This document shows positions 55 to 55,265 of a stretch of 59,259 nucleotides of DNA, one piece after another. This DNA comes from a virus. Its lineage: Duplodnaviria; Caudoviricetes. Where the stretch lies: IMG/VR virus record IMGVR_UViG_3300048599_000301, positions 1 through 59,259 of that record; one strand, 5' to 3'. Position 1 is the first letter of the stretch; each line of letters starts with the position of its first letter. The notes below the pieces were generated by a model. The model was not told where the DNA came from, did no database searches, and was given only the letters and a program-made list of their open reading frames with translations. A program made the translations under genes and the position numbers.

Positions 55-125
55 TGGGGAATAGTGTAACGGTAGCACGACTGACTCTGGATCAGTTAGT
101 CAAGGTTCAAATCCTTGTTCCCCAG
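55..125 (+). tRNA. tRNA-Gln (anticodon CTG), integration target
   Basis: Acceptor stem TGGGGAA/TTCCCCA, anticodon arm CTGA-CTCTGGA-TCAG (CTG at 87-89), T-arm CAAGG-TTCAAAT-CCTTG; CCA not encoded. Confidence 0.96.
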
Positions 126-167
126 CTCCTGAAAGCCTTTCCTGACAACGAGTTAGGAAAGGCTTTT
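85..167 (+). repeat. attL core: 83-bp direct repeat (tRNA 3' half plus terminator)
   Basis: Identical to 48055-48137; identity starts in the anticodon loop. Confidence 0.95.
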
Positions 168-826: not shown

Positions 827-827
827 G

Positions 828-1130: not shown

Positions 1131-2036
1131 ATGGGGTTTGCGAAGGCTTTTGGCGGTGCTGTCGGCGTGGTGTTGGGGCTGGCTGCGGGATTCGTTCTCC
1201 TCTGCTTGGGATGTGGCGGATGCGTGATGATCCTGTCGTCTGCTGGAGACTCAGCCCGGCAGGCGGCCCGCGAGTCGCAGGCGAGGCAAGAAGCACGTGA
1301 AAGAGTCGCGGCAGAAGTCAGGGCCCAATCCTCGGCTCCGTCGCAACCCCTAGCCAGGGAACCGTCGCCGTCGACGGACTCGGCCGTGCAAGAGTCCGCC
1401 CAGCCAACACCGCAGGCAGAATCGTCACCGAATACGCCGATCGCAATGAACGATTCCACTTCCTCCCAAAGACCATTGAAGGTTGTCGCAGAGAAGGCCT
1501 CCGCAGATGAGCCGGAGGATTCCGCAAAACGGCGGACCTGGACCGATTCCACCGGAAAGCACACGATCGAGGCGGAGTTCAAGGGAGTCGCGGCCGGCAA
1601 GGTGAAGCTCTTGAAGGCGGATGGGGAAACGATCACGATCGCCTTGGACAAGTTGAGCGACGAGGATCAAGCGTGGATCAAGGACCGGCCGCGGGCCGAG
1701 GAATCGCGACGCTCGGCCGCCGCCATCGAACGGAAGCGGGTCGCGGAAGAACGGCAACGAGAGGCTCGCCTGCAGGCGGCTGCCGAAGAGCGTCGACGGG
1801 AAGCCGCCTCGAAAAACCTCGGCATCACGAAGGCGGCCTATGACCGGATTCAGACGGGCATGACCTACCGCCAGGTCGTCGAGATCATCGGCCAGCAGGG
1901 CGAAGAGCTTTCCCGCAATAGCATCGGCGGCGAGGAAACGGTGATGTGCCAATGGACGACCAGGACCGGCCCGAACATGAATGCGATCTTCCAGGGCGGA
2001 AGACTTGTGCAAAAGGCTCAATTCGGGCTCGAATGA
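1131..2036 (+). CDS. Membrane-anchored SHD1-domain protein with C-terminal DUF3862/BLIP-like domain (moron)
   Basis: N-terminal hydrophobic helix with CLGCGGC; RTWTDSTGKHTIEAEF...LSDEDQAWI (SHD1); ITKAAYDRIQTGMTYRQVVEIIG...KAQFGL; RBS GGAGG. Confidence 0.8.
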   Translation: MGFAKAFGGAVGVVLGLAAGFVLLCLGCGGCVMILSSAGDSARQAARESQARQEARERVAAEVRAQSSAPSQPLAREPSPSTDSAVQESAQPTPQAESSPNTPIAMNDSTSSQRPLKVVAEKASADEPEDSAKRRTWTDSTGKHTIEAEFKGVAAGKVKLLKADGETITIALDKLSDEDQAWIKDRPRAEESRRSAAAIERKRVAEERQREARLQAAAEERRREAASKNLGITKAAYDRIQTGMTYRQVVEIIGQQGEELSRNSIGGEETVMCQWTTRTGPNMNAIFQGGRLVQKAQFGLE

Positions 2037-2052: not shown

Positions 2053-2125
2053 TGCTGCCTCGCCTCGCAAAGCCCGAGGCAGCGCGGCCGCTCTGGACTG
2101 CCTCCGGCGGCCGTTTTTTATGCGC
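2053..2125 (+). ncRNA. Two-hairpin antisense sRNA, copy 1 (predicted target: start region of gene 1131)
   Basis: Stem TGCTGCCTCG/CGAGGCAGCG, stem CGGCCGC/GCGGCCG, T6-ATGCGC tail; scaffold shared with three copies at 51765-52112. Confidence 0.75.
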
Positions 2126-7545: not shown

Positions 7546-7573
7546 GTTCAGGCTCCGTACTCCTAACTCCTGA

Positions 7574-8980
7574 TCAGGTCCACGAAAACCGCATGCGCTC
7601 CAGGTGGTTCCCGGCCGGTTCGCCGTCGCGGATCGTTTCCACCTGCCAGAGGATCGCCACCCCGCCGGCCCCAAGGTTTCCGATGGCGAGTTTTGCGGAT
7701 TCGGTGGGACAACTGAACGTCAGCGGAGGAAGCTGCGTCTCGCTGGTGATGACCTCGGTCGGGGCGGGGTCGATTGTCAGGTCGACCGGAGCCATTGGCC
7801 GGATCGTGTCGCCGGCTTCCCAGGCGACGGCGGTCTTTCCACGGAAACCGACCGCAACGGCCGAGAGCGTGCCAAGGGCCCCGGCCGTCTCGCCAACCTG
7901 GAATGTCCCGGTCAGGCTCTTGCAGATCGCGTAGCCGGCCCGGGAGGCGACTACTACGGCCGTCGCTCCGCTGGTTGCTCCGGTGATCGTCGCGCCGTAT
8001 GCCGCGGCCGTCGATCCGTTGCCGGTCAGGACCACCCAGTTGGCCGCGGGGCAGGTGAACGTGTTGCCGCTGAGCGTGTAGGGCCGCAAATCGCCCTTGG
8101 TGCTGTTGTAGACCCAGCCGGCGGCCTCCCAGTCGCTGGCGTCTGTTCCGTCGAACGTGCCGGCGGTCAGCCCCAGGGAGCTGCCGGTGGCGATCGTGGT
8201 AGCCGTGCCGGCCGGCGGAATGAGGTGAACCGCCAATGAGGCCATGACCCCGCTTGCGTTGCCGTTGACGGCGGCGATCCCGCGGACGCGGACCTTGCCG
8301 CCGCTGATCTCGGAGGTTTCGTCGCCCTCGTAGTCGGGCACGAACTTGCCGACCGGGAAGGCCAGCGTCCAGGGCTCCGTCTGGTCGGTGGCGGGGAGGC
8401 TGGCCAGGACCGCCGTTACCTCGATAAAGCCGTTCTTGGCCGCGTTGTAGACCGGCTTGGCCTCGCTGGTGGCGGTCGAAAGGGCCACGGCCTCGCCGTA
8501 TTCCTCAGTGCCCATCTTGATCTTGACGGTTTGCCCGCTAGCCGTGAAGGCGACCGTCAGCGTGCCCTCGCCCAGGCCGGCCGCTGCGCGATGGATCGAC
8601 AGGCCGGTGATCGTGCTGCCGGCCACGGCGGCAATTTCGGGCTGTTCGCCGCCGACGGTCTGCCCCAGGATCTGCGTTGTGGAGCGATTGGACCCCACGG
8701 CGCAGAAGACGAATTGATCGCCGGCAGACGGGGCAGATGAAAGGGCCTTGGACAGCGGGTAGGCGCCGCCGCTGGCCGGCCCCATGACATGGAACGGCTC
8801 GCCAGCCAGGGCTCCGGTAATGAACCAGCCGACGCCGCCGGCCGGAGCGGTGAGGGCCGTGGTCGGCACCAGGCTGGTCGTCGTGCTGCCCGTTCCGATG
8901 GTGTGCGTCGGCAGGGGTTGACTGGCCGTGGCTCCGGTGAGGTAGTACAGTTTGAGGTCGGCCGCGGTGGGTGTCGGCAT
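7574..8980 (-). CDS. Putative tail structural protein (Thr/Gly/Ala-rich)
   Basis: Position in tail operon, beta-rich composition, RBS GGAG before MPTPTAA. Confidence 0.6.
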   Translation of the reverse strand: MPTPTAADLKLYYLTGATASQPLPTHTIGTGSTTTSLVPTTALTAPAGGVGWFITGALAGEPFHVMGPASGGAYPLSKALSSAPSAGDQFVFCAVGSNRSTTQILGQTVGGEQPEIAAVAGSTITGLSIHRAAAGLGEGTLTVAFTASGQTVKIKMGTEEYGEAVALSTATSEAKPVYNAAKNGFIEVTAVLASLPATDQTEPWTLAFPVGKFVPDYEGDETSEISGGKVRVRGIAAVNGNASGVMASLAVHLIPPAGTATTIATGSSLGLTAGTFDGTDASDWEAAGWVYNSTKGDLRPYTLSGNTFTCPAANWVVLTGNGSTAAAYGATITGATSGATAVVVASRAGYAICKSLTGTFQVGETAGALGTLSAVAVGFRGKTAVAWEAGDTIRPMAPVDLTIDPAPTEVITSETQLPPLTFSCPTESAKLAIGNLGAGGVAILWQVETIRDGEPAGNHLERMRFSWT

Positions 8981-20095: not shown

Positions 20096-22297
20096 TTACT
20101 TGCCGTTGGCCTTGTACATGCCCGGGAAGTCCATGGCCTTGGCACCGATGTCGTGCTTGATGTCCCAGCCGATGCCCCACTGGCCCTTGTCGAGGGTGAA
20201 GCTGCGGAGCTGCGGTTGGCGGTTCGTGCCGCGGCGATAGACCACGCGGATCGTGCGCGGGCCGCCGGCGGAGAGGAACCAGTTCGTATCGCTGCCGGGC
20301 CGGATCTTCTCGGTGGTCGGATCGTACACGCCGGCCGTTCCGACCCGGTCGTCGATCACCAGCGTGATGTTCTCGCCGGCGAGGATGTTGATCGGCATAT
20401 ACTCGGTGACGGCGTTGGCCGTGCCAACCTTGGCCAGGGCCGTGCTGGTCAGGCATTCCTTGGCGGTGTCGGAAAGAGCCATCGGAACGATCAGGAAACG
20501 CGGCTTGATGTTCAAGACCACGTCGCCTTGGCGCTGAGACCCCATCGCCTTGACTGCCGCCTTCAGCGCGGCGGCCGAGAGGGCCGAATCGGCGCCCGTG
20601 GCGAGGTTCTTGTGGGTGGCGTGGAACAGGGCCACGGCGTCGGCGATCAGGGCCGGATTGGCCAGGAGGATCGAATAGACCAGGTCCGGGCGGAGTCGGG
20701 CAGCCGCCTGGCCCATTTCGTAGGGCATGCGCATGATTGCACCCAGCCGGTCGTCGAGGATGTCCTGTTCGTCGGCCGTGAACTTTCGGGTGAACCGGGC
20801 AATCTTATAGGTCTCGTGGCTGTCGCTCGCGGTGGCGTCGGTCGCGGTGCCTCCGCGGGGATGCCGCTTGAGCCGGGCCTCGGCCGACAGGGTGATGTCC
20901 TCCTGTTCGAGGAAGTTGGGCACGTCCTCGGAGTCGCACCAGCTCGTCGTGTCGGCGACTTCGTTCCAGCCCTCCATCAAGCGGGCATAGACGTTGGTCG
21001 AAAACACGTGATTGAGCGTTGCGCCGCTCATCGCCGACCGGATCGCTTCGTCGGGGTCCCAGTAGGTCCGGCCCGTGTCGAGATACGCGGCCATGCGGCA
21101 GAGGTCGACGGCCGACATGCCCCGGAACTGGTCGCCCCGATCGGCGTCCTGTTCGGTGATCTGCCCTTCGGCACGGCTTCGCAGGCCGTTGTACATGACG
21201 TGCCGGGTCGGATCGTTGATCCCATGGGCGACCATGAAGCCGGCGGCCAGGCTGCGGGCGTTCATGTTCTGCTCTTGACTGCGGCTGTGGATCGCCGGGC
21301 CGACCGGGGCCGCTCGGTTGGTCCGGACCGCGGTCAAGAACTCGCGGCTGGCCCGGGTCAGGTCCCAACCGTCGTCGATCGCCTGGCGGAGCGTCTCTTC
21401 GGGGATGTCCTCGCCGGCCAGCTCGCGGAGCTGGCGCACGCGGTTGCGTTCGGCGACGACGGCCTGGCGGGCGGCCTCTTCGGGGTCGGTTGGCGTAGTG
21501 CGGCCGTTCCCGTCGGCCGGCGGCGTTGGCGGTGGGTCGCTGCGCTGGCTACCCGCGGGCTGCGTCTGGCCGGCGGGCGGATTCGTCGGCTGTGTTCCGG
21601 CGGCCGCGGCGTCGGCCCGAGCCTTATCCGCCTGGTTCAACTTGGCGTAGAACTCTTGGGCTTCGGCTTCGGAAGCATCGGCACGGAGCCCCAAGGTCTC
21701 AAGAAACTTGCGAAGACGTTCGTTCATGGGTTTTGACTCCTGTTGAGAACGAATCTTGGCGCGGGGGTCCGCACCGATAGAGGTTAACGACCCCTCCCGG
21801 GGACGCCATCGCGTATTGATGTTCAACGCGCGATCGGCGGGGGCGGTGTACGTTCGCCCGTTTACGGTTGACGATCGCCCCGGGGGGATTACCGTAGTTT
21901 CAAGCGGTCGTTGTCCGACGGAAACGTCAGTGATGTGGCGTTCTTTGATCTTGGTCCAAACGCCTTCCTCCGACGCGGAGACGTGGAGAGTGCCAAGAAG
22001 CTGGCCATTCTCGACACGCAAGTTACGGATAGAACCGACCTGGGAACGAATCGAACTGCGGGAATGGTTGTCAAGGAGGGGGATCTGTTCCGGAATCTCC
22101 ACCCCGTCCATGCGGAGGATCTCGTAGACCGGCTCCCAGGTGCGAAGGTCGATCGAGGTTACCGCGTCCTCCGTTGCGACCACGGCGTCAACCGTCCTGG
22201 CCTCTTCATTGATCGTCGACGGGCGGAGCTGCAGCGTGCGAACGTGCATGGGTTCGTCGTCGCCGCTGCTGCGCACGTGGAGCCATTCATTTCGCAT
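20096..22297 (-). CDS. Prohead protease-major capsid protein fusion
   Basis: N-terminal VATE...PLLDNH...VSVG protease; Pro-rich scaffold-like linker; C-terminal LFHATHKNL...PRFLIVP...DIGAKAMDFPGMYK capsid. Confidence 0.85.
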   Translation of the reverse strand: MRNEWLHVRSSGDDEPMHVRTLQLRPSTINEEARTVDAVVATEDAVTSIDLRTWEPVYEILRMDGVEIPEQIPLLDNHSRSSIRSQVGSIRNLRVENGQLLGTLHVSASEEGVWTKIKERHITDVSVGQRPLETTVIPPGRSSTVNGRTYTAPADRALNINTRWRPREGSLTSIGADPRAKIRSQQESKPMNERLRKFLETLGLRADASEAEAQEFYAKLNQADKARADAAAAGTQPTNPPAGQTQPAGSQRSDPPPTPPADGNGRTTPTDPEEAARQAVVAERNRVRQLRELAGEDIPEETLRQAIDDGWDLTRASREFLTAVRTNRAAPVGPAIHSRSQEQNMNARSLAAGFMVAHGINDPTRHVMYNGLRSRAEGQITEQDADRGDQFRGMSAVDLCRMAAYLDTGRTYWDPDEAIRSAMSGATLNHVFSTNVYARLMEGWNEVADTTSWCDSEDVPNFLEQEDITLSAEARLKRHPRGGTATDATASDSHETYKIARFTRKFTADEQDILDDRLGAIMRMPYEMGQAAARLRPDLVYSILLANPALIADAVALFHATHKNLATGADSALSAAALKAAVKAMGSQRQGDVVLNIKPRFLIVPMALSDTAKECLTSTALAKVGTANAVTEYMPINILAGENITLVIDDRVGTAGVYDPTTEKIRPGSDTNWFLSAGGPRTIRVVYRRGTNRQPQLRSFTLDKGQWGIGWDIKHDIGAKAMDFPGMYKANGK

Positions 22298-23825: not shown

Positions 23826-24124
23826 CAGAAATCACTCACGCTATCGGGGCGAACATAGGTCACCTTACACGATCGGAACGGGCCGGAACTGGCATGGGCG
23901 GCCGAGGTCTTGAGCTGCCGGCAATTGGCAATGAAGCTGTCGAGCTCGGCCGGGTTGAAGCTGAGGGCTTGACTGCCGCCTCCGGCCAGGGATCGCGTCA
24001 CGTTCGGCGTGGTCGCCAGTCGGACCTGAATGGCCATCGCGTTGGCAATCGCCCCGTCATAGTCGCGGGCGGCCAGCGCGGTAGCGGCTGCGGTGTAGAG
24101 CGTGTTCAACTCGGCGAGACTCAT
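23825..24124 (-). CDS. Head completion protein (gpW-like position)
   Basis: Small gene directly before the portal. Confidence 0.55.
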   Translation of the reverse strand: MSLAELNTLYTAAATALAARDYDGAIANAMAIQVRLATTPNVTRSLAGGGSQALSFNPAELDSFIANCRQLKTSAAHASSGPFRSCKVTYVRPDSVSDF

Positions 24125-24186
24125 GTAGCCGAGTGTAGGACGCTGAGGAGAAGGGCTAAAGAGGGCAGGTTACAGGATCTGTAACC
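24125..24186 (-). promoter_or_regulatory. Activator-dependent leaderless head-gene promoter
   Basis: -10 TACACT (24132-24137) 7 nt before ATG; no good -35; inverted repeat GGTTACAG-N3-CTGTAACC (24168-24186) centred near -53. Confidence 0.6.
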
Positions 24187-24240
24187 GACTCAAAGAAAGG
24201 GCTCGTTAGCCCAAGAAGCGATTGAAGGATAGTCAGATGC

Positions 24241-24269
24241 TTGACATGTCGCTTGTGAGGGGGTAACCT
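24241..24269 (+). promoter_or_regulatory. Sigma70-like moron promoter
   Basis: TTGACA-17 bp-TAACCT. Confidence 0.7.
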
Positions 24270-24337
24270 TGCCCCTAGCAAGAAGCAATCATGGCAGCTC
24301 GTTCCCGATTCTCATCACAAGAAAGGCAGGTGCGTCG

Positions 24338-24898
24338 ATGAGTAGTGAATCACCATCCCGGTACGAGGCTCTTGCCAAGTTGGCGATCGAGCATTCCAAG
24401 GACTTTTTCGCACGGAAGAAGCAGGCCTCGCGATTTGGGTACGAGCTTGTGAAGAGGTTCATCGCGTACCTTGGTTGCCCACCGGAAAAGGCAACCCACA
24501 TCTCGATCGCTGCTGGATCTCTCGATTTCTGCTCTGACGAAGACCGCAGACAGTTTCTCAGTTGTTTGCCTAAACTCACGTATCATGACGATGGTTTTTG
24601 GTATTTCGGTATCGCCATCGAATTCAGTTTGAGGTGCCAATCGTTGTATTGGGACACCCAATTCCTTCGGTTCGGCGTTCGGTCGAACCGGGATTCATTC
24701 ACGGTCCGTCTTGATAAAGACGTGTCGTTCGATGTCGATTTGCAGGATTCTCAATTGATACCTTTCTTTGATGTTCTGTTTAACGAACTGGTTGCTGAGT
24801 ACGAGACGGCTTTGCGGGAACATTCTGAATGCAAACGAATCGGTTTCACCCCTCCGGCGATCCACCACACAAGCGAGCCAAACGAAGAGGCCTTCTAG
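24338..24898 (+). CDS. Hypothetical moron protein
   Basis: Low-GC ORF opposite to the late genes, with its own promoter. Confidence 0.6.
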   Translation: MSSESPSRYEALAKLAIEHSKDFFARKKQASRFGYELVKRFIAYLGCPPEKATHISIAAGSLDFCSDEDRRQFLSCLPKLTYHDDGFWYFGIAIEFSLRCQSLYWDTQFLRFGVRSNRDSFTVRLDKDVSFDVDLQDSQLIPFFDVLFNELVAEYETALREHSECKRIGFTPPAIHHTSEPNEEAF

Positions 24899-25021
24899 TA
24901 GATGAATGGGCCTCCGACTCGGTTGAACGTAATGGCGAGCCTGTGGATAGCGGCTGGCCATCCTGGTCGTTGGGTGCGATCCCTGCAATCACATTTCGAG
25001 AATCAACCATCTGCTAAACCC

Positions 25022-25726
25022 ATGCCTCTCTCGCCATCCAAATCTCGAGCATTCGTGACGGTACTCGTTTTCTCGTCCTTGCTGTACTTCCTAATAGGGG
25101 GACTAACTGCCGCTTTAGGAAAGCTCGAAGTTCAGACTTACGCACTCATCGGTGGGATGGTTGGAAGCGTCGCGTCCATACTTGGTTTGGTCTCGCTGTC
25201 GCGGCCATCAATTACTCAGACCGACCTGCAACAAATCGAGTCGCAATGCCTGAAATCACTCGCCGAGACCACGGAGGATATTCGCCGTCTCGAAGAACAA
25301 CGCACTTCCACGCTGACGAGCCTTGAGGTGGCAAAGGTGCTCACGAGAGAGCAGATTGATGCTCTGAATCGTCAGAAGCAGGAAATGGAACTGTTGGTTC
25401 GCAAGGCGAGTCTCTGCCTCTTTCTTCAAGAACAGCAGCAACTGTACACACAGCGGATTCAACAGCGGTTGTCCAAAAGCCCTGGGCTTACCTCACTGCT
25501 TGACCACCTTCGGGCGGTGAATGAAAAGCTAGTGGCATTGGATGCTGAGATCAAGAGCGATCCCAATGTTGAGTTGCTGCTCTCTATCATCGAGGCGGCG
25601 AAGGGAGGACGTGACGAGCCGCTGTTTTCCGCCTTCGGTGTACGCGTAGCCACGAATGACTTATTACGCGTGGCTGAGGAGACTTTCCGGTCTCTGTGGA
25701 CGCTTTTTGGAGTCAGACGCACCTAA
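25022..25726 (+). CDS. Two-TM plus coiled-coil moron protein
   Basis: Two hydrophobic helices followed by a heptad-rich region. Confidence 0.65.
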   Translation: MPLSPSKSRAFVTVLVFSSLLYFLIGGLTAALGKLEVQTYALIGGMVGSVASILGLVSLSRPSITQTDLQQIESQCLKSLAETTEDIRRLEEQRTSTLTSLEVAKVLTREQIDALNRQKQEMELLVRKASLCLFLQEQQQLYTQRIQQRLSKSPGLTSLLDHLRAVNEKLVALDAEIKSDPNVELLLSIIEAAKGGRDEPLFSAFGVRVATNDLLRVAEETFRSLWTLFGVRRT

Positions 25727-25938
25727 GCACGGCGTTCGCCGCAGTCAGCCCTTGTGAAACGGGTAGAATCTCCGTGCCACCAAGCGGCGACTTGCGCTGC
25801 CGTGCCACGTTGGGGGCCTGGTGATTTTTGACGATCAAGATCGGTAACCAAGTAGGCGGTGCCGAGCCGCGACGGCCGCCACTACACTGCCACGGATCTG
25901 GCTGCCTTACCGGTTTTGTTCGTCATAACCCAATGGAC

Positions 25939-26268
25939 TCAGGTGCCGAGGATCTTGTCGAGATCGATTCCCCATTTCCTGGCAATGACCATACCGTCGC
26001 GCAAGTACTGGGCCAGGGGCGTCTTCTGGACCATTTGATTGACCGCAAGCGGGGGCGAAGGAAACGTGTCACTCATGCTGCTGTATACCCCAAGGAAGTC
26101 GCGTTCATTGTCGAAATCGCCTCGCCCCATATACATGACTGAGACAACCCCATAGATGATGGCGGGAGGCTGTGAGCACAGATAGTCGTACAACTGGCGC
26201 CGCAGAAAATCCTTTGAGTCGTATTCTGCCATTCCAATGACGGTTTCGATCACTTCAGTTGGCTTCAT
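25939..26268 (-). CDS. DUF3775-like protein
   Basis: VMYMGRGDFD...KTPLAQYLRDG. Confidence 0.55.
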   Translation of the reverse strand: MKPTEVIETVIGMAEYDSKDFLRRQLYDYLCSQPPAIIYGVVSVMYMGRGDFDNERDFLGVYSSMSDTFPSPPLAVNQMVQKTPLAQYLRDGMVIARKWGIDLDKILGT

Positions 26269-26360
26269 TGGCTGTACTCCGTCTTGGCCATTGCTGAAGG
26301 TCCCTTGTCCAAAGTGGTGGTTTCTTTCGTGACGAGAACACCGCGTGAGCTGTGTCCGAC

Positions 26361-27275
26361 TCAACTCGACCTCGATCGAGCCTTTAGCTCCGCTATCGCC
26401 TTGGATGCTTGAGCAATCTTCTTCTGCTGTTCCACCGCCGCCAGTTTCTCCTGCAAAATGAGTTCAATGCCTGCTTTGACGATCTCGAAGGATGCAAGAC
26501 ATTGCTGCTCGGACAACTCGTGCACGCCAAGACTCAGGATTGAATAGAGATCCTTGTTCTGAACAAGAAAACGGGGCAACTTGTCCGCCAACATCTCTAT
26601 CTTTTCGCGCACGCGTTGCTTGGCATATTCCTCCTCGTTCCAATTGGGTGAGGCGACCGCATCTTGATGGGCCTGCTCTATCAGATATTCGAAAACCCTA
26701 CGCAGATAAACAAATGAACCAATCCCCACACCATGGGCTGCCAAGCCAATCGCCTTGGTGAACTCCCGCTGTTTCTCGTCTACAAGAACTGGGCGGTATT
26801 CACGGAGTTGGGCGATTTCGAGGTCCGCCAGCGACGGGCTCTGCCCGATCTTCTGAAGTATCTTGTTCTCTACCTCAACGATGAACTTCAGGACATGCGT
26901 CTTGTCCCGCATGCAGTCGAATCTCGCTGTGAAAACTCTATCCTCCAGTGCACGTTCAGGCAGAAGGAAAGCTCTAGTGGCATGTCCGTTCCAGGTGGTC
27001 CACCCAAGACTATGGCTATGAATGCTTGCAACATCTTTCGCTTGGATAGAATCGCCTTGGGGTATCCGCTGTAGCATCAAGTTCGGCATCTCAGGTGCGA
27101 AGATGGTTTCGCGCCTGCATTTGACGCAAAAAGCGTCGAGGTTGCCAGGAAAGTACTCTATCAGCAGTGAATGACCGTAGTTGTCGTCCGTGAGCTGGAA
27201 CTGCTGGTAGAGCGGCGTCGTCAGAAAGAACTCTTCCGCAGGTGGGAAACCTGCCGTCACCTTTGCCATCATCAA
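26361..27275 (-). CDS. Hypothetical protein with DUF4145/HEPN-like C-terminal domain
   Basis: GIGSFVYLRRVFE...YSILSLGVH. Confidence 0.6.
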   Translation of the reverse strand: MMMAKVTAGFPPAEEFFLTTPLYQQFQLTDDNYGHSLLIEYFPGNLDAFCVKCRRETIFAPEMPNLMLQRIPQGDSIQAKDVASIHSHSLGWTTWNGHATRAFLLPERALEDRVFTARFDCMRDKTHVLKFIVEVENKILQKIGQSPSLADLEIAQLREYRPVLVDEKQREFTKAIGLAAHGVGIGSFVYLRRVFEYLIEQAHQDAVASPNWNEEEYAKQRVREKIEMLADKLPRFLVQNKDLYSILSLGVHELSEQQCLASFEIVKAGIELILQEKLAAVEQQKKIAQASKAIAELKARSRSS

Positions 27276-27353
27276 GCCCCTCCGCTAATTGGTGGTCTGG
27301 CCCCGATTCTAGCGAAAGTCCGCGACCACGGAAAGGGGGCAGCCCCATCCATC

Positions 27354-46441: not shown

Positions 46442-46702
46442 ATGGCTTGGACTAAGTACACCCCCGACGATCTTGAGCAACTCGCCTCTGAGCTTGAGTT
46501 GCGAGCCAAGAGCCTGCGGGACGCGGCGGCGATCGTCCGGCAACGATCAGAGAATGGCGGTGGCGCCTTTGTCGAAATGAATCAGTCGCTTTCGAAGAGT
46601 TCTCCACTGACCAAGGGATTCGCCGCGATAATGGACTTCGCTGCGCAGGCCACGGCGAAGGCGGGAATGGCCCAAGTTCGTTGCATTGGGAAATCGGAGT
46701 AG
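46442..46702 (+). CDS. Small helical protein in the repressor position, paralogue of 560-826
   Basis: Divergent from the early operon, directly upstream of the integrase. Confidence 0.6.
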   Translation: MAWTKYTPDDLEQLASELELRAKSLRDAAAIVRQRSENGGGAFVEMNQSLSKSSPLTKGFAAIMDFAAQATAKAGMAQVRCIGKSE

Positions 46703-46707
46703 CCTCG

Positions 46708-47979
46708 ATGCAAGAGGGCAGAATCAGGGTCTACGTCTACGAGGAATCTGGGCGGCGGTACTATCGGATGAAGTACCAAGATCCAGTTTCCGGGGAGTGG
46801 AGCCGGAGGTCGACGGAGGTACCGGTAAACGAGGGACGCAGAAAGGACGCCGATCGTGCTGGAGCGGTCTGGGAGGCGGAACTGAATGCGGGGCTATACA
46901 CACCGCCGTCCCAGGTTTCGTGGGAAGAATTCCGCGACCGGTATGAGGCGGAGGTCTTGCCAGGCGTCGAGCCGAAGACGCGAACGTGTTACCGTACGGC
47001 ATTGAACGCGTTCGAACGCGTGATCGGGAAGCCGCCACGACTGGCCGTTGTGAACGGCAGTGTTATGAGTCGGTTTTGCTCGGAGTTGAGAAAACCGCGG
47101 CCAGCCAAGCCGCCGGAGGAGAAGCAGAAAGGCAGAGGCCGGCGACCGAAAGAGCAGGTGACCGAAGCGACCATCGCCAGTTATCTCCGCGGTCTCCGCG
47201 CGGCATTTCGTTGGGCTTCAGATACGGGTTTGATGCCGAAAATGCCGAAGTTCCCCCGGCTTCGTGCCAGCCGGTCTGGTGCAGCGCGAATGAAGGGGCG
47301 TCCGCTGACTCGGGAAGAGTTCGAGCGAATGCTCAAAGTAGTCTCGAAGGTTGTAGGGAAAGAGGCCGCCCCGTTGTGGCGGACGTTCTTGCGTGGGCTG
47401 TGGTGGTCCGGGCTGCGTCTCGACGAGGCCTTGCATCTGTATTGGGCTCCCACGCCATCCGACGAAAAGGCCATCGCGATTTGCAGTGACGGCGCGTATC
47501 CTATGCTCTGGATTCCTCCGAAGGGTCAGAAGAACCGCCAAGAGCAGTTACTTCCGGTTGCTCCGGAGTTCTGGAGGTTCCTTGAAAAACGATGGCCTGA
47601 AGATCAGCGGGAAGGTCGCGTTTTTCGCCTGACAAGCAAAATGGGCAACTCGGTTCGTGATTTGCGGGTCGTCTCAAAAACGATCTCACAGATCGGAGAA
47701 CGAGCAAGCGTTGTCGTTGATGCCCATAAGGGGAAATTCGCCAGCGCTCACGATCTGAGACGTTCCTTCGGGCTGCGCTGGGCGACGCGTGTCCTTCCCC
47801 AGGTTCTTCAGGGGATGATGCGACACAAGGACATTGCCACTACAATGACGTACTACGTTGGGAGTCTGGCCGAGACTACAGCGGCTGGTATCTGGTCTGC
47901 ATGGAAGCGAGAAAGGCGGAAAAGCAGTGGGACCAGAAGTGGGACAAAGGCGGGCTCTGAAACGGAAAAACACGAATGA
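46708..47979 (+). CDS. int: Tyrosine recombinase (phage integrase)
   Basis: GLRLDE (R), HDLRRSF (HxxR), MRH, TTMTYY; adjacent to attR. Confidence 0.93.
   Translation: MQEGRIRVYVYEESGRRYYRMKYQDPVSGEWSRRSTEVPVNEGRRKDADRAGAVWEAELNAGLYTPPSQVSWEEFRDRYEAEVLPGVEPKTRTCYRTALNAFERVIGKPPRLAVVNGSVMSRFCSELRKPRPAKPPEEKQKGRGRRPKEQVTEATIASYLRGLRAAFRWASDTGLMPKMPKFPRLRASRSGAARMKGRPLTREEFERMLKVVSKVVGKEAAPLWRTFLRGLWWSGLRLDEALHLYWAPTPSDEKAIAICSDGAYPMLWIPPKGQKNRQEQLLPVAPEFWRFLEKRWPEDQREGRVFRLTSKMGNSVRDLRVVSKTISQIGERASVVVDAHKGKFASAHDLRRSFGLRWATRVLPQVLQGMMRHKDIATTMTYYVGSLAETTAAGIWSAWKRERRKSSGTRSGTKAGSETEKHE
47926..47945 (+). promoter_or_regulatory. Putative integrase arm-type site, right
   Basis: AGTGGGACCAGAAGTGGGAC matches 184-203. 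Confidence 0.7.
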
Positions 47980-48054: not shown

Positions 48055-48137
48055 CTCTGGATCAGTTAGTCAAGGTTCAAATCCTTGTTCCCCAGCTCCT
48101 GAAAGCCTTTCCTGACAACGAGTTAGGAAAGGCTTTT
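48055..48137 (+). repeat. attR core (duplicated tRNA-Gln 3' half and terminator)
   Basis: 83-bp identity to 85-167. Confidence 0.95.
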
Positions 48138-49742: not shown

Positions 49743-50228
49743 CTACGGCAGCCGAACGGCCGCCGCCTCGTCTGGGGTTGCGTAGGTCATCTGAATCATC
49801 GACCTAGCGACCAGCAGCAGCCGCTCGCTGTGCTCCTGCCCATACGGGGCTTGCTGTTGGCATAGTTCCATGAGCATGTCGTAGGTCTCGTGGTCGATGC
49901 CGCCGGCTGACCGCAGCTTCTTCGTATAAGCCTCGGTACTGAGTGTGGCCGGGTCTTGCCTGCCGGTGATGATCTGAAAGTGGATTCGAAGGACCATCTC
50001 CAAGACCGACATGAGCAGGATGCGCACATCCTGATACCGGCCCGCGCGATGGAGGTTTGCCGCTGTGCCAACGAGTGCAGCGTAGCAGGTCCGGACGTCC
50101 CGGTCCGTCAGAAGTGCCTCGACCTGCTGGCGGATGCGATTCTTGCGGGCCTCCTTCTGAACGGTCGTCATCTTCGGTTGCCGGTTGCTTGTGACGACGT
50201 TGTTCTCGACGTATGCGGTGGTGATCAT
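49743..50228 (-). CDS. Hypothetical protein
   Basis: GGAGGT RBS; coupled to the upstream ORF. Confidence 0.6.
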   Translation of the reverse strand: MITTAYVENNVVTSNRQPKMTTVQKEARKNRIRQQVEALLTDRDVRTCYAALVGTAANLHRAGRYQDVRILLMSVLEMVLRIHFQIITGRQDPATLSTEAYTKKLRSAGGIDHETYDMLMELCQQQAPYGQEHSERLLLVARSMIQMTYATPDEAAAVRLP

Positions 50229-51295
50229 GCGACACCTCCCACCACGGCCGTGGGTTCGTCGGCTTCTTCCTCTTCCTCAACCTCCGTGTCTTCGTCCGGC
50301 TCCTCGTCGTCACCGGGCCGCGCCAAGCCGTTGGCCGCCGCCTTGCGGAACTTGCGGGCAGTCTCCTCCAGGTCGGTTGCCAGGGCCAGCAGGATGCCTT
50401 CCAGGTCAATCCGGTCGTCGATCGCGGGCACGTACCACGGGCCGGCCACGTCAAACTCCAGATCGAACGTCTGGGTTCGCTCGTCCATTTCGCCGCCCAC
50501 GAACTTGTCGAAGCCGTTGGCCCGAAGGATCTGGGTCAGCGTCTGCCGCTTGGCGGGCCGCTTCGGGTCACAGTGACCCGCGGCGTGTCCGTTGGTCCGT
50601 TCAATTGGCTCACAGTGATCCGATTTTCGAGCCACCGGGCCGCTCTCCTCGTCGTCGTTCTCCGCGGGCTCGCTGGGCGGGTTTTGTTGCCCACGGGCAA
50701 CATTCTCCGCCGCCTCCTGCGCTCGATAGTCGACCAGATGGGCCAGCCCGTCGCGGACCTCATCGGCGGTCGGTAAGACTAGCACCATAGGCAACTGCTG
50801 GCATCGCTCGATGATGCCCCGGTCGCCCTCGAAAACGAACGTGTCGGTCGATTCCTCCGGGATCGGATCGCCGCTTTGAGTGACAACCCACCAAACGCGA
50901 TCCTCGGCCCACGAAAGCAAGCTGTTGGTCTGGTCGTTCAGCTCAACCATCCGGCGGAACGCGCTCTGCCGGGAATCGTGGCTACGGCGGTCGGTCTGCC
51001 ATGAGCCGAGCCAGCCGAACATGGGCACGCTCAACTCATGCTGGGGTTCCCAGCCTTCGGGCACCCTAAGCGGGATGGTGTGGAACTTGTGCTCCGGGTT
51101 GTCGGGATCGACCGTTCCGAGCACTTCGGTCCCCTGGGTGTCGATCGTCGCCGCCGCAACGAGCGTTGCCGGGTCGACGGTCGGGTCGTCGGGTTCGTAG
51201 CCGTCGAAGGCATCCCGGATGGCTTGGCGAATTGCGGCCTGACGGGAGACGTAGAGCGAACCGTTAGAACGAAACAGAGAGACTTGGGTAGCCAT
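50225..51295 (-). CDS. Acidic hypothetical protein
   Basis: AAGGAG RBS before MATQVSLF. Confidence 0.6.
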   Translation of the reverse strand: MATQVSLFRSNGSLYVSRQAAIRQAIRDAFDGYEPDDPTVDPATLVAAATIDTQGTEVLGTVDPDNPEHKFHTIPLRVPEGWEPQHELSVPMFGWLGSWQTDRRSHDSRQSAFRRMVELNDQTNSLLSWAEDRVWWVVTQSGDPIPEESTDTFVFEGDRGIIERCQQLPMVLVLPTADEVRDGLAHLVDYRAQEAAENVARGQQNPPSEPAENDDEESGPVARKSDHCEPIERTNGHAAGHCDPKRPAKRQTLTQILRANGFDKFVGGEMDERTQTFDLEFDVAGPWYVPAIDDRIDLEGILLALATDLEETARKFRKAAANGLARPGDDEEPDEDTEVEEEEEADEPTAVVGGVA

Positions 51296-51764
51296 GACTG
51301 GCTCCTTTCGCTGGCAGATTGCCAGCAAAGAAGACAGTGAGCCCACGTGCTCGGTTGATAAGCGGATCGACCGCCGACCGTGCGTTGCTCCCCCGCCGCT
51401 GCGGGTTCATCGCTTCAACACGGCCCCAAGTACGTGGGCTCACTGTCTGACGCATGGGTGTCCTTTCGATCGGGTTATCAAGCCCGGATGGCGGTTGCCA
51501 TCGCCCGTGATTATCGCTGATGCCTCCGGGAAAGTCAACTACCTCTGTTGGAGGGGTGGAATGATGATCTGGGCTGTGATGTCAGTGATGGACCGGCCGA
51601 TGGCCCAAAAATGACCTCCTGGCTTGCGTTTCCTCGTCACCGGATGAAGTTTTCGAAGGACGGGCCGGAAGACGAACCGAGCCGCCAGCGGGGCTCCTGG
51701 GCGATTCTAGAGGGTGTCGGGAAAAATCTTATCCAGCTTGCCAATTGTGATGTATGTTTGTCTA

Positions 51765-51836
51765 GCTGCCCAGGTCTTCAACCTTCCTGAGGCAGCACGG
51801 CCGCTGATTCCCTCTCAGCGGCCGTTTTTTATGCGC
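51765..51836 (+). ncRNA. Two-hairpin antisense sRNA, copy 2
   Basis: GCTGCC...GGCAGC stem, ACGGCCGCTGA/TCAGCGGCCGT stem, T6-ATGCGC tail; -10-like TATGTT at 51753-51758. Confidence 0.72.
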
Positions 51837-51906
51837 TGCATCGTCGGCGATCAAGTGGCCAAAATGACCACTTGAAAACAGCGTCGCCCCGGTGGTATCC
51901 TGATCG

Positions 51907-51979
51907 TGCTGCCTCACCCGCAAAGCTGAGGTAGCGCGGCCGCGTCGGGCTGCCCTCCGGCGCGGCCGATTTTGTGCGC
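51907..51979 (+). ncRNA. Two-hairpin antisense sRNA, copy 3 (complementary to start region of prophage gene 1131)
   Basis: Same scaffold; promoter TTGAAA-18-TATCCT (51872-51901); 51943-51958 pairs 15/16 with 1118-1133. Confidence 0.78.
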
Positions 51980-52031
51980 CCCCATGGCGCCGCCCCTTGC
52001 TTCCAGCCCGCCCCGGCGCTATGCTGGTGAG

Positions 52032-52112
52032 CGCTGTCTCGACCCATACAGACAAGCTGAGGCAGCGCGGCCGCGATGGAACCCCACCCTCCACGCGGCC
52101 GATTCTTTGCGC
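52032..52112 (+). ncRNA. Two-hairpin antisense sRNA, copy 4
   Basis: Same scaffold; promoter TTGCTT-17-TATGCT (51997-52025). Confidence 0.75.
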
Positions 52113-52203
52113 TGGCCGTCGGGCAGCCCACCTATTGCTCCGCGCCCACGCCGGCTTTAGACTGGCGGGCATCGATGGTGTGCTAACGAAAGGGGTGGTG
52201 ATC

Positions 52204-52548
52204 ATGGGCATGGTGGTTCTGTGGTGTGCGCTGTCCGCGATCGGTGGCCTGATTGCGCTGGTGGTCAACGGTCGCGTGCTGGCCGGGCTCGTGCTTGGGT
52301 TACTGCTCGGGCCGATCGGCTGGCTACTGGTCTTCTTTCTGTCCGACCTCCGCCAGCGTTGCCCGTCATGCAAGGGCGTGGTGGCGTCCGATGCGACCGC
52401 CTGCATGCACTGTGGAGCGAGCCTTATCACGCGACCGCTTCCTCAGTCCAGCGAGACGTTCTGTCAGAAATGCGGCGTCGATGGCATGTCGACGATGGAA
52501 TTCGGCCGGCGCGTGATGCGTTGCCCGAAGTGTGGAGCCAAGCTGTAG
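52204..52548 (+). CDS. Membrane protein with double zinc ribbons
   Basis: GLVLGLLLGPIGWLLV TM; CPSC..CMHC and CQKC..CPKC; promoter TTGCTC-17-TAGACT upstream. Confidence 0.75.
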   Translation: MGMVVLWCALSAIGGLIALVVNGRVLAGLVLGLLLGPIGWLLVFFLSDLRQRCPSCKGVVASDATACMHCGASLITRPLPQSSETFCQKCGVDGMSTMEFGRRVMRCPKCGAKL

Positions 52549-53393: not shown

Positions 53394-55265
53394 CTACCCC
53401 GCCGTCTGGTTGACGGGGCTCCCCGGAGCGACGCCCCAGGGCAACGCCAACTCCGCCACGGGCCCCAGCGATCCGTCGGCACCGATCAAGGCCACGGCCA
53501 CATACTCCGCTGCCGTCTGCTTATGGAACGTCTCAAACGAGGTCCGCACCTTGGATGCCGTGACCAGCTCCGTCGGAGTCGTGAACGTCGCCACCGGTGA
53601 TGTGGCCGAATACCAGACGCCAAAGGAAAGACCCCAGACCGAAATCGGATGCGCGATGCCCCAGGTGATCGTAGCGACGCCCCGCTTGATCGTCGAAGCC
53701 AGGTTGACGACGCCGGGAAGCGGGTCGGCGATCGGCGGCCCATCGTCGCGGAACGTGTAGATTCTAGTCGCACTACGTCGGGCCCCGGCGAACAGTGTGC
53801 TGTCGTGCGTGGTCCACATCTCGTAGGTGCCCGGGGCGATGGCAACGCCGGTCAACGTCTTCTGGGCCGCATCTCCCTCGATCGTCCCTAGGACGGTCAC
53901 GGCGCCGGTCTCGACATTCCGCGCGTAAATCGTCGTCCGGTCGGCATAGATGGCAATGGTGCGGCACAGCGAGACCTTGGAGTGGTTGGCTCGTGCGTCG
54001 AATCTCGCCAGGGATATCTTGCGTTTCTGTGCCCGCGCGTCAACGCGGCTCAGCGAAACTTTCCTGTGCGTCGTCCGCACCTCTTCGACGGCATCCACGC
54101 GACACAGCGATATCTTGCTATGTGGCCGGCGGTCCAGATCCTGGGCCATGAGCCGCATTTGAGCGGACGCCGGCAGTTGGGCGGTCTTTGCTGACGCAAT
54201 GCCTGTCTGTGCGATGAGCCGCATGGAGGCCGACGGCAGACGCGGCACGCCCTGCACATACACCTCAACCGAGTCAGTGGCGTCCTCACACTCGCCGGGA
54301 GCGGTAATCGTGTAGGTAGTCGTCTCGGTGGGGCTGACGGTGGTGGAGCCGCTAGGTGGGACTGCGCCGACACCGTTGTCGATGGAGGCGGATGCCGCGT
54401 CGCTCCAAGACCAGGTGAGCGTGACGCTGCCGCCCTCGAGGATGCCCATAGGCTCGGCGGAAATGGAGGCGTGAGGCTCAAGCGGCGGAGGCAGCGTAAA
54501 CGCCTGCGTCGTGCTTCCGTTGGTGTTCGTGGCCGTGAATTCGATCTGCTCGGCCCCGGTGATGCCGGTTACCGTGGCCGTGAATGAACATGCCGTCGTG
54601 TCGGGGCTATTCGGAGTGCCGCCGCTGATCGGGTTGCCTTCGCTGTCCAGGAGCCGATAGGACCACGAGTCTGCGCGACTGATGCCGACACTGGCGCTAT
54701 GGGTGAGCGGAGTGCAGCCAGTGACGCTAAGGGTGGGCGTACCGAACCACGGCGGACTGGATTCCACCAGCACCTGGACACTGCTTGTCCCAGACTCATA
54801 GGTTCCTCCACCGCAATACTCGGCGGTCCAACTCACATACCCCGTCGTAGCGCTCGAGCCAGCGTAGATAGGGACATCGACCTCCGACGGGAATGAGGTC
54901 AGCGCCGGAATGAGGGTCATTGATTCCCATGCTGGACACGTCACGTACCCATTGAAATACGGATGACCGTAGCCGTCATAGCAGTCCGGGCACGGGCCGT
55001 TAACTCGGACGCGAACCGACCCCTCGACGCGCACGCCCTCGGGCGGACGAAACACCTTGTCGCCGCAACGGTAGGTAACGGAGAGAACTTCAACGAGTGG
55101 CATGTTAGGATTCCTTTCCTGTTTGGTTTGCGCGGCCGCCTTGAGCCTGTCCAATCCGCTCCGGCCGCTGGCCATTGGCCTCTGAAGCACGACCGACAGC
55201 AGGACCGCCGCCAGTGCGGTGATCGCGATGAACAGCGACACCACCCACAGAACTGCGCGCCCCAT
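53394..55265 (-). CDS. Homologue of prophage tail adhesin 4714-7545 with an in-frame N-terminal TM extension (second start at 55103)
   Basis: MPLVEVLSVTYRCG...TCPAWESMT...TSFPSEV and IYARN...APGTYE...AEL.LPW...SP.NQTA shared; DUF2341/LamG block absent. Confidence 0.85.
   Translation of the reverse strand: MGRAVLWVVSLFIAITALAAVLLSVVLQRPMASGRSGLDRLKAAAQTKQERNPNMPLVEVLSVTYRCGDKVFRPPEGVRVEGSVRVRVNGPCPDCYDGYGHPYFNGYVTCPAWESMTLIPALTSFPSEVDVPIYAGSSATTGYVSWTAEYCGGGTYESGTSSVQVLVESSPPWFGTPTLSVTGCTPLTHSASVGISRADSWSYRLLDSEGNPISGGTPNSPDTTACSFTATVTGITGAEQIEFTATNTNGSTTQAFTLPPPLEPHASISAEPMGILEGGSVTLTWSWSDAASASIDNGVGAVPPSGSTTVSPTETTTYTITAPGECEDATDSVEVYVQGVPRLPSASMRLIAQTGIASAKTAQLPASAQMRLMAQDLDRRPHSKISLCRVDAVEEVRTTHRKVSLSRVDARAQKRKISLARFDARANHSKVSLCRTIAIYADRTTIYARNVETGAVTVLGTIEGDAAQKTLTGVAIAPGTYEMWTTHDSTLFAGARRSATRIYTFRDDGPPIADPLPGVVNLASTIKRGVATITWGIAHPISVWGLSFGVWYSATSPVATFTTPTELVTASKVRTSFETFHKQTAAEYVAVALIGADGSLGPVAELALPWGVAPGSPVNQTAG

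What the first reader, a model, noticed from the sequence alone, without database searches (positions are those of the whole stretch)
51753..52112. Array of re-programmable two-loop antisense RNAs: constant scaffold, variable guides that read as RBS-AUG-first codons
Seen: three tandem ~75-nt units (51765, 51907, 52032) plus a fourth in the prophage (2053) share the scaffold GCTGYC(TC)-[loop 1]-GAGGYAGCR-CGGCCGC-[loop 2]-GCGGCCG-T-rich-TGCGC. The stems carry compensatory or G-U changes while the loops vary. Copies 3 and 4 start 5-6 nt after clear -35/-10 promoters; copy 2 has only a -10-like box. Joining the reverse complement of loop 2 to that of loop 1 gives a translation start each time: copy 1 GGAGGCAGTCCAG-A(T)G-GGCTTTGCGAGG (MGFAR); copy 2 GAGAGGGAATC-A(TG)-AAGGTTGAAGACCTG (MKVEDL); copy 3 GGAGGGCAGCCCG-A(C/T)G-nGCTTTGCGGG (MxFAG); copy 4 GGAGGGTGGGGTTCC-AT(G)-AGCTTGTCTGTATGGGTC (MSLSVWV). 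Bracketed bases are filled in by me. Inference: a modular bipartite-guide translational silencing system, with guides collected into an array by a mobile element. It resembles P1 c4 two-loop antisense RNA in concept, but I do not recognise this family.
Basis: partly seen in the sequence, partly recalled or inferred. Interest (0 to 1): 0.95.

Follow-up and report, generated by a model that had tools for sequence, protein, structure and literature searches.

The report
Phage two-hairpin antisense RNA family
Four copies of a small two-hairpin RNA gene sit in two neighbouring prophage regions, and the two loops of one copy match the ribosome-binding site and first codons of the gene beside it, which points to a new family of phage-borne translation silencers whose expression has not yet been shown.

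Summary
The four units are real: A 51765-51836, B 51908-51979, C 52033-52112 and D 2054-2125, all on the + strand. Each has a 9-bp hairpin followed directly by a CGGCCG-stem terminator. The scaffold is 77-89% identical between copies and the loops 23-35%. Loop 2 always carries an anti-Shine-Dalgarno motif.

No Rfam family matches. I found no other copy in the viral, genome or metagenome collections or in five related viral records.

The main new result is a target inside the window. D's two loops can pair with 26 of 30 bases (1118-1147) covering the SD, AUG and codons 2-5 of gene 1131-2036, which ends 18 nt upstream of D. This is the best of 71 start regions; 4 of 1000 loop shuffles do as well.

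B matches only the SD half. A and C have no target here.

Stem covariation is not significant with four copies, and no expression data could be obtained.

D lies in a tRNA-Gln prophage. The array lies in a second phage-like region beside it.

Verdict: probably a new family of TIR-blocking antisense RNAs that works like P1 c4. The claim of a "re-programmable array" is unproven.

The parts
2054..2125 (+). Unit D: two-hairpin RNA. It starts 18 nt after the stop codon of gene 1131-2036 and has no promoter-like site of its own. Hairpin 2 is a terminator followed by UUUUUU.
   Evidence: (86.4 bits)
51765..51836 (+). Unit A: two-hairpin RNA with a -10-like TATGTT (51753-51758) 6 nt upstream. Loop 2 carries CCCUCU.
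   Evidence: terminator-like; 72.3 bits
51908..51979 (+). Unit B: two-hairpin RNA and the closest paralogue of D. The two share CGCAAAGC in loop 1 and CUGCC(C)UCCGG in loop 2.
   Evidence: 72.8 bits
52033..52112 (+). Unit C: two-hairpin RNA with the longest loops. Its U-tract is interrupted (AUUCUUU).
   Evidence: 76.6 bits
1118..1147 (+). Predicted target site of D in the translation start region of gene 1131. Bases 1118-1131 (SD GGAGG up to the A of AUG) pair with loop 2. Bases 1133-1147 (G of AUG to codon 5) pair with loop 1. Only U1132 lies between the two sites.
1131..2036 (+). Target gene: a 301-aa protein with an N-terminal hydrophobic anchor, an SHD1 domain and a C-terminal DUF3862/BLIP-like domain. 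It is a prophage moron.
   Evidence: An orthologue (72% identical, same length, same first 22 residues) appears
51872..51901 (+). Promoter-like site for B (TTGAAA-18-TATCCT with TG before the -10)
51997..52025 (+). Weaker promoter-like site for C (TTGCTT-17-TATGCT), read by eye and below the scan's threshold
   Evidence: sequence; not listed
85..167 (+). Context: attL of prophage 1, made of the 3' part of tRNA-Gln (55-126) plus flank. It is an 83-nt perfect direct repeat of 48055-48137.
48055..48137 (+). Context: attR of prophage 1, with the integrase at 46681-47979 beside it. The A-C array lies 3.6 kb to its right, in a second phage-like region.
52204..52548 (+). Context: first + strand gene after the array, a 114-aa membrane and zinc-ribbon protein

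Best explanation
The units are genes for small (~65-75 nt) base-pairing RNAs carried in the accessory ('moron') ends of two adjacent phage elements. Each RNA is a fixed scaffold of two abutting hairpins, and the second hairpin is also the intrinsic terminator. Specificity lies in the two loops. Loop 2 always contains an anti-Shine-Dalgarno motif and reads the SD region up to the start codon. Loop 1 reads the first codons. Binding of both loops would bury the ribosome-binding site and the AUG and so block translation initiation.

D is cognate to gene 1131-2036, a membrane-anchored SHD1/BLIP-like moron protein. D has no promoter of its own, so it is probably made as the 3' end of that gene's mRNA and gives feedback repression. 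B is a diverged paralogue in the neighbouring element and could still cover the SD of gene 1131. A and C would have targets outside this record, in the host, in the missing part of the second element, or in other phages.

Shown: the four units, their fold, the scaffold/loop conservation contrast, and the D-to-start-region complementarity with its statistics. Inferred: transcription, 5' ends, pairing in vivo and repression.
For: (1) Loops are near random identity while the scaffold is conserved (23-35% against 77-89%). Anti-SD CCUCC/CCCUCC/CCCUCU in loop 2 is the one motif all four loops keep.

(2) A, B and C have no + strand gene upstream; the neighbouring genes 49743-51455 run the other way. 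Each has a TAT(G/C)(C/T)T box ending 6-7 nt before the unit. They therefore look like stand-alone transcription units.

(3) D against the gene 1131 start: loop 2 -19.7 and loop 1 -23.7 kcal/mol, about 26 bp over 1118-1147 with the AUG at the junction. It is the best of 71 start regions, -43.4 against -31.3 for the next. Loop shuffles reach it in 0 of 150 and 4 of 1000; in 2 of 1000 with the anti-SD kept; and in 0 of 1000 at that start region itself. The alignment score is 26 against a null of 18.1 +/- 2.2, reached by 8 of 1000 shuffles.

(4) The target is the gene directly upstream of D.

(5) The 10-mer GGAGGGCAGC occurs twice in both strands of the window: at 1118 and as the complement of B's loop 2.

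(6) The start at 1131 is supported by an orthologue of equal length with an identical N-terminus.

(7) The units keep their fold within the whole 461-nt array (z -5.5).
Against: No homologue anywhere, so there is no phylogenetic support. Stem covariation among the 4 copies is not significant.

A and C have no target among 71 start regions (61 of 150 and 77 of 150 shuffles as good; 617 and 940 of 1000). Exact seeds of their predicted targets gave only chance-like hits in viral contigs.

B's best start region is 55265, not 1131 (5 of 150). That G-rich start scores high for every unit, so it looks sticky. B's alignment score is not significant (231 of 1000).

Over all 118,402 positions, energy alone does not single out the 1131 site. 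It ranks 3rd among non-self clusters with narrow loops and 12th with wide guides. One minus-strand site (3601-3616) scores 27 in the alignment scan, though only across the artificial loop junction.

D sits exactly where an ordinary terminator of gene 1131 would sit. Forming 13 bp within a 12-15 nt hairpin loop needs some stem opening, which was not modelled.
Confidence: 0.5

Rival explanations
1. The units are only a phage-specific double-hairpin terminator or structured repeat that has been duplicated. The loops drift freely because they do nothing, and the match of D to the gene 1131 start is chance.
For: D starts 18 nt after a stop codon, and hairpin 2 plus its U-run is a terminator. Stems are mostly invariant with no significant covariation. 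No homologues or transcripts are known. Two other window positions score as well as the 1131 site by energy alone. A and C have no target.
Against: A, B and C have no + strand gene upstream to terminate, and three terminators in a row each carry a -10-like box at a fixed distance. An anti-SD motif is kept in every loop 2 while the rest of the loops are near random identity. The D-to-start-region match is bipartite, in the right order, centred on the AUG of the adjacent gene, and is reached by 4 of 1000 shuffles.
Confidence: 0.2
2. D acts only in cis. As the 3' UTR of the 1131 mRNA, its loops fold back on that mRNA's own start region (5'-3' end pairing) to limit translation or stabilise the message. 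No free small RNA and no trans targets are involved, and A-C are decayed relics of such 3' ends.
For: D has no promoter-like site and directly follows the gene. The complementarity is to the same transcript. A and C lack targets.
Against: A-C have no remnant of an upstream gene; tblastn with the 1131 protein finds nothing else in the window (best E 0.53). They carry -10-like boxes, and B has a 9 of 12 promoter. Their scaffolds are as well kept as D's.
Confidence: 0.15
3. The A-C array is a cis-acting leader of the downstream zinc-ribbon gene (52204-52548). Tandem promoter-proximal terminators would be read through only under antitermination, as with phage late-operon leaders or put-like two-hairpin RNAs.
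For: The array lies directly upstream of that gene on the same strand, with 91 nt between C and the ATG. The two-hairpin, single-junction architecture recalls HK022 put RNA (recalled, not tested).
Against: D has the same scaffold but sits after a gene, followed by an opposite-strand terminator-like hairpin (read). Loop variability, the anti-SD motif and the D-to-start-region match are left unexplained. No antiterminator gene was recognised nearby.
Confidence: 0.08
4. The units are RNA antitoxins: type I (blocking a small membrane toxin such as the 114-aa zinc-ribbon protein) or a type III repeat array.
For: This is a tandem RNA array upstream of a small membrane protein gene in a prophage accessory region.
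Against: Among 71 start regions, that of 52204 is only 5th for C (-23.6 kcal/mol) and is not in the listed top five of A, B or D; neither A's nor C's best start region beats loop shuffles (61 and 77 of 150 as good). Units differ strongly in their loops and each has its own terminator, unlike type III arrays (recalled). None of the 20 proteins scanned matches a PADLOC toxin-antitoxin model.
Confidence: 0.04

Closest known systems
C4 antisense RNA of phages P1/P7 (Rfam C4; Citron & Schuster 1990, as cited in PMC5320573 and PMC8198154, of which I saw passages)
   Same: A phage-borne RNA of about 77 nt. Two loops (a', b') pair with two nearby sites of a target mRNA from the same phage, and one loop occludes the ribosome-binding site. 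The variable loops set specificity on a constant scaffold. Many copies with different loops can occur in one genome (A. baumannii, PMC5320573).
   Different: No match to the Rfam model even at E<=10. C4 has three stem-loops and is cut out by RNase P from a transcript upstream of its target. Here there are two hairpins, the terminator loop itself is a guide, D lies downstream of its target, and A-C appear to have their own promoters. Here the second site is the first codons rather than upstream sequence.
LhrC1-5 multicopy sRNAs of Listeria monocytogenes (PMC4132741, passages seen)
   Same: Several homologous sRNA genes, partly in tandem. A stem-loop precedes a terminator, and the CU-rich terminator loop takes part in binding the SD region of the target to block translation.
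   Different: LhrC copies carry the same redundant UCCC motif at three sites and share targets. Here loop 1 is unique to each copy, and the two loops read adjacent, different halves of one start region. There is no sequence relation (no Rfam hit), and the genes are phage-borne.
mmgR/suhB (Rfam RF00519), alphaproteobacterial sRNA
   Same: A small hairpin, a C-rich CUCCC-type stretch and a GC-rich terminator. It is the best Rfam hit to unit A.
   Different: 18.6 bits against a gathering score of 41, E 0.28, and only for unit A. It is not a member.
3'-UTR-derived sRNAs such as CpxQ or s-SodF (recalled, not checked here)
   Same: The sRNA shares the terminator of an upstream protein gene, as D does.
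   Different: Known examples usually act on other mRNAs. D is complementary to the start region of its own parent gene. A-C are not 3' UTRs.
OxyS-fhlA two-site kissing interaction (recalled, not checked here)
   Same: Two hairpin loops of one sRNA bind two sites of one mRNA, one of which overlaps the ribosome-binding site.
   Different: In that case, as I recall it, the two sites are short and lie well apart. Here they abut, 1 nt apart, with about 13 bp each.

Membership tests
C4 antisense RNA (Rfam C4) | Scores with the Rfam covariance model | tested here: not met
   No C4 match in the gathering scan of the whole window, nor at E<=10 in 51600-52250 or 1000-2350
C4 antisense RNA (Rfam C4) | Three stem-loops (P1-P3), about 77 nt (PMC5320573 passage) | tested here: not met
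   Two hairpins only in all four units
C4 antisense RNA (Rfam C4) | Two loops pair with the target mRNA, one covering the ribosome-binding site | tested here: met
   In silico only, and for D only: loop 2 pairs with the SD up to the A of AUG, loop 1 with the G of AUG to codon 5
C4 antisense RNA (Rfam C4) | Processed by RNase P from a transcript upstream of its target in the same operon | not testable with these tools
   Position differs: D is downstream of its target, and A-C have -10-like boxes. Processing needs RNA data.
mmgR/suhB (RF00519) | Reaches the Rfam gathering score (41 bits) | tested here: not met
   18.6 bits, E 0.28, unit A only
LhrC-type multicopy sRNAs | Same CU-rich UCCC motif repeated in loop A, the linker and the terminator loop (PMC4132741) | tested here: not met
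   A CCUC-type motif is present in loop 2 of all four units, but not shared in loop 1, and there is no linker (0-1 nt between hairpins)
Intrinsic (Rho-independent) terminator | GC-rich hairpin followed by a U-run | tested here: met
   The consensus scan lists the full second hairpins of A and B; for D it lists only a 5-bp inner part of hairpin 2 followed by the T-run. C's hairpin is followed by AUUCUUU and is not listed. So the feature is met as one part of each unit, not as the whole of it.
Type III toxin-antitoxin RNA array | Near-identical short tandem repeats followed by a toxin endoribonuclease gene (recalled definition) | tested here: not met
   Loops are 23-35% identical. The downstream protein is a zinc-ribbon membrane protein with no PADLOC hit.
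Trans-acting base-pairing sRNA (general kind) | Discrete transcript with its own promoter and terminator | not testable with these tools
   Promoter-like and terminator-like sites only.

The most novel reading that the evidence does not exclude
The scaffold is a general-purpose phage 'start-codon clamp'. Any start region can be addressed by writing its SD-proximal half into the terminator loop and its first codons into loop 1. The three-unit array in the second element would then be a small library of such silencers aimed at genes of rival or co-resident phages: B at the SHD1/BLIP-like moron of the neighbouring prophage, A and C at genes not in this record. That would be RNA-based inter-prophage warfare or immunity, with loops exchanged between copies rather than evolving by point mutation.
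Probability: 0.12. Interest if true: 0.85.

Novelty: new variant of a known kind. Interest (0 to 1): 0.5.

Why it matters
If D and its paralogues are expressed and act as predicted, they define a new phage sRNA family from a poorly studied, high-GC host lineage. Its design is unusually legible: a constant two-hairpin scaffold whose terminator loop and first loop read the two halves of a translation start, with the start codon at the junction.

Targets could then be predicted from sequence alone, and the scaffold would be a natural candidate for designed translational silencers.

It would also add a second, unrelated example to the P1 c4 principle, and a case of a moron gene carrying its own antisense brake in its 3' end. 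That gene lies next to a PD-Lambda-5 defence system.

As it stands, this is one locus with one statistically supported target and no RNA data.

Tried and rejected
Rfam: gathering scan of the window, and E<=10 scans around both loci. Only tRNA-Gln passed; the best sub-threshold hit was suhB/mmgR.

Scaffold pattern scans. Viral contigs gave 0 hits. Genome contigs gave 16 hits, all inside coding-like GC-rich sequence and none with the 5' arm or a U-tail. Metagenome contigs gave 18 hits, none with the unit architecture. The window's own record may have been left out of these scans.

Relatives by protein. The 373-aa and 623-aa neighbours found none in viral contigs. The capsid-protease fusion gave 4 records at 47-52% identity. 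The covariance model found nothing convincing in them: best E 0.028, and the two full-length weak hits were inspected and rejected. The alignment of gene 1131 relatives gave one SHD1-only locus with no model hit in its record. Cultured phages gave no DNA match to the array (3 chance-level hits, E 0.1) and only 23-28% identical capsid relatives.

Targets of A and C. None in the window by mismatch search. None among 71 start regions. Exact seeds in viral contigs gave 3 and 4 hits, none in a start-region context.

SHD1 was absent from the 14 control genomes. The protein atlas gave no usable hit. The planctomycete host guess therefore rests only on my recollection that bacterial SHD1 domains are typical of that phylum.

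Considered and rejected: integration-site (att) repeats, because the real att repeat is the 83-nt tRNA-Gln repeat; inverted terminal repeats of a cassette, because the complementarity is split exactly into the two loops; type III TA, bridge or omega-type guide RNAs, because no matching protein genes were found.

Literature. Two searches (planctomycetes / small RNA / prophage; prophage-encoded / sRNA / anti-Shine-Dalgarno / two loops) listed no description of such a family. I saw only listings and the passages cited. Supplementary files were not consulted.
Full report
WHAT IS THERE. The window is a complete IMG/VR virus record of 59,259 bp, 62% G+C, rated 70% complete. Four paralogous units lie on the + strand: A 51765-51836, B 51908-51979, C 52033-52112 and D 2054-2125. 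Each consists of hairpin 1 (5' arm GCUGYCUC., 3' arm .GAGGYAGC) followed after 0-1 nt by hairpin 2. The base of hairpin 2 is the self-complementary CGGCCG and it is followed by a U-rich run and UGCGC. Single-sequence folds give exactly this: -39.4, -42.9, -34.9 and -37.0 kcal/mol. Shuffle z-scores are -6.9 for A and -2.6 for D; B and C, folded 1 nt out of register, gave -2.4 and -2.9. The units keep this fold inside the 461-nt array (z -5.5). A covariance model built from the four (R1) recovers only these four in the window at E<=1e-5, at 72-86 bits.

CONSERVATION PATTERN. Between copies the scaffold columns are 77-89% identical and the loop columns 23-35% (all six pairs, Fisher p between 1.8e-4 and 6.5e-7). 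The only element kept in the loops is an anti-Shine-Dalgarno motif in loop 2: CCUCC in D, CCCUCC in B and C, CCCUCU in A. B and D are the closest pair; they share CGCAAAGC in loop 1 and CUGCC(C)UCCGG in loop 2. Of 17 pairs, 11 never vary, two show G-U changes and one changes on both sides, and 122-170 of 500 shuffles do as well. Four copies are too few to test this.

TRANSCRIPTION SIGNALS. The consensus scan finds one promoter-like site on the + strand: TTGAAA-18-TATCCT with an upstream TG, ending 6 nt before B. It also finds terminator-like sites at the second hairpins of A and B. By eye, C has TTGCTT-17-TATGCT ending 7 nt before the unit (7 of 12, below the scan's cut-off). A has TATGTT ending 6 nt before the unit and no good -35. 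So A, B and C share a TAT(G/C)(C/T)T box at a fixed distance. D has nothing of the kind and begins 18 nt after the stop codon of gene 1131-2036. A, B and C have no + strand gene upstream, since the neighbouring genes 49743-51455 are on the other strand.

GENOMIC SETTING. An 83-nt perfect direct repeat (85-167 and 48055-48137) contains the 3' part of tRNA-Gln (55-126). A tyrosine integrase lies at 46681-47979. Between the repeats are tape measure, capsid-protease fusion, portal and terminase genes, a LexA-like repressor and methyltransferases. This is prophage 1, and D lies in its left accessory end.

That left end reads: orf 536-952 (-), gene 1131-2036 (+), D, a PD-Lambda-5 A+B defence pair at 2440-4708 (E 8e-126 and 8e-112), then a tail-fibre-like gene at 4714-7674 (-).

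The array lies 3.6 kb to the right of attR. It sits between unknown minus-strand genes on one side and, on the other, a zinc-ribbon membrane protein gene (52204-52548), an unknown gene, and a second tail-fibre-like gene (53394-55265, -). That last gene is 48% and 37% identical to the prophage 1 fibre gene in two segments. It is the only gene of those right of attR that matches anything in prophage 1. So the array occupies the equivalent accessory position of a second, different phage-like element that runs off the contig.

THE TARGET. Its start region is complementary to both loops of D:
- SD GGAGG (1118-1122), CAG (1124-1126) and CUAGA (1127-1131, ending in the A of AUG) pair with loop 2 (-19.7 kcal/mol).
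- GGG (1133-1135, starting with the G of AUG), UUUGCGA (1137-1143) and GGC (1145-1147) pair with loop 1 (-23.7 kcal/mol).
That makes about 26 pairs over 30 nt, in the order loop 2 then loop 1, with only U1132 between the two sites.

STATISTICS FOR D. Among 71 predicted start regions this is D's best by 12 kcal/mol (-43.4 against -31.3). Shuffled loops reach it in 0 of 150 trials and 4 of 1000. With the anti-SD held fixed they reach it in 2 of 1000, and at this particular start region in 0 of 1000. A gapped-alignment score gives 26 against a null best-of-71 of 18.1 +/- 2.2, reached by 8 of 1000 shuffles. The start at 1131 is supported by a 301-aa orthologue, 72% identical, whose first 22 residues are the same. 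The gene call on record for this contig starts later and gives 186 aa (P0002).

RESULTS THAT CUT THE OTHER WAY.
- Scored over all 118,402 positions of both strands, the 1131 site is not unique by energy. It is the third non-self cluster with narrow loops and the twelfth with wider guides. The better sites lie on the non-coding strand of genes.
- One minus-strand site (3601-3616) scores 27 in the alignment scan. It spans the artificial junction of the two loop complements, which are not contiguous in the RNA.
- B matches the SD half of the same start region very well: GGAGGGCAGC, a 10-mer that occurs only there and in B, at -27.8 kcal/mol. Its loop 1 matches poorly (-11.4). B's best start region is that of 55265 (-42.4; 5 of 150 shuffles), a G-rich start that ranks among the top four for every unit and so looks unspecific. 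B's alignment score is not significant (231 of 1000).
- A and C have no candidate in the window (61 and 77 of 150; 617 and 940 of 1000). Exact seeds of their predicted targets in viral contigs gave only 3 and 4 chance-like hits outside any start-region context.

DISTRIBUTION. No Rfam family matches; the best is suhB/mmgR at 18.6 bits against a gathering score of 41, for A only, and there is no C4 hit. Strict scaffold patterns found nothing in viral contigs and only chance matches in genome contigs (16) and metagenome contigs (18). The model found nothing in four related viral records (capsid 47-52% identical) or in a provirus carrying an SHD1 protein. Cultured phages hold no relative of the array. 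The family is so far known from this record alone. Expression could not be examined.

INTERPRETATION. The most economical reading is a family of phage-encoded base-pairing RNAs with a fixed two-hairpin scaffold. The terminator loop carries an anti-SD plus target-specific bases, and the first loop reads the first codons. Together they clamp a translation start.

D is cognate to the gene it follows, a membrane-anchored SHD1 plus DUF3862/BLIP-like moron protein. It is probably made as that mRNA's 3' end, which would give feedback or cis repression. A-C look like stand-alone genes. This works like P1/P7 c4 RNA: two loops, one over the ribosome-binding site, specificity in the loops, multicopy variants (passages of PMC5320573 and PMC8198154). 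It also works like LhrC in its use of a terminator loop against an SD (passages of PMC4132741). It is a member of neither family.

The rivals are: plain terminators with a chance match; cis-only 5'-3' pairing; a leader of the zinc-ribbon gene; and antitoxin RNAs. They are weighed in their own sections.

VERDICT. It has no comparative or transcript support. I rate it a new variant of a known kind, with interest about 0.5.

Noticed in passing
window 85-167 and 48055-48137; 46681-47979: An 83-nt perfect direct repeat containing the 3' part of tRNA-Gln bounds a ~48-kb prophage, with its integrase next to the right repeat. A second phage-like region starts right after it, so this looks like tandem integration at one tRNA gene.
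   Followed up: partly
window 2440-3765 (+) and 3809-4708 (+): A complete PD-Lambda-5 anti-phage defence pair (A: E 8e-126; B, a D12-class adenine methyltransferase: E 8e-112) lies in the prophage's accessory end, directly downstream of unit D.
   Followed up: partly
window 51852-51874 and 51602-51616: A 7-bp inverted repeat with a 9-nt spacer (CAAGTGG..CCACTTG) overlaps the -35 of B's promoter-like site. Its core GGCCAAAATGACC recurs as GGCCCAAAAATGACC 250 nt upstream. It could be an operator.
   Followed up: no
window 2146-2185: Directly after D there is a hairpin preceded by AAAAA on the + strand, which reads as a terminator for the minus strand. A second small hairpin follows (about 2191-2212).
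   Followed up: no
window 1131-2036: The gene call on record for this contig starts at residue 116 (186 aa, P0002). A 72% identical orthologue is called at the full 301 aa with the same N-terminus, so the recorded call is probably too short.
   Followed up: yes
window 20096-22297 (-): A 733-aa fusion of head-maturation protease and major capsid protein (PHROG 4523, E 3e-89). Its nearest cultured-phage relatives are only 23-28% identical.
   Followed up: partly
window 5335-5592: Four copies of a 42-nt repeat at 54- or 108-nt spacing inside the 986-aa tail-fibre-like gene, suggesting an 18-residue protein repeat.
   Followed up: no
window 24000-27300: A low-GC island (53-55% against 62-68% around it) with genes on both strands and no PADLOC hits, lying between the head and terminase modules.
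   Followed up: partly
window 51510-51538 (-) and 51264-51455 (-): The best promoter-like site of the region (TTGACT-17-GATAAT, 10 of 12) points away from the array, towards a 63-aa ORF with no family match and the 356-aa and 161-aa genes behind it.
   Followed up: no
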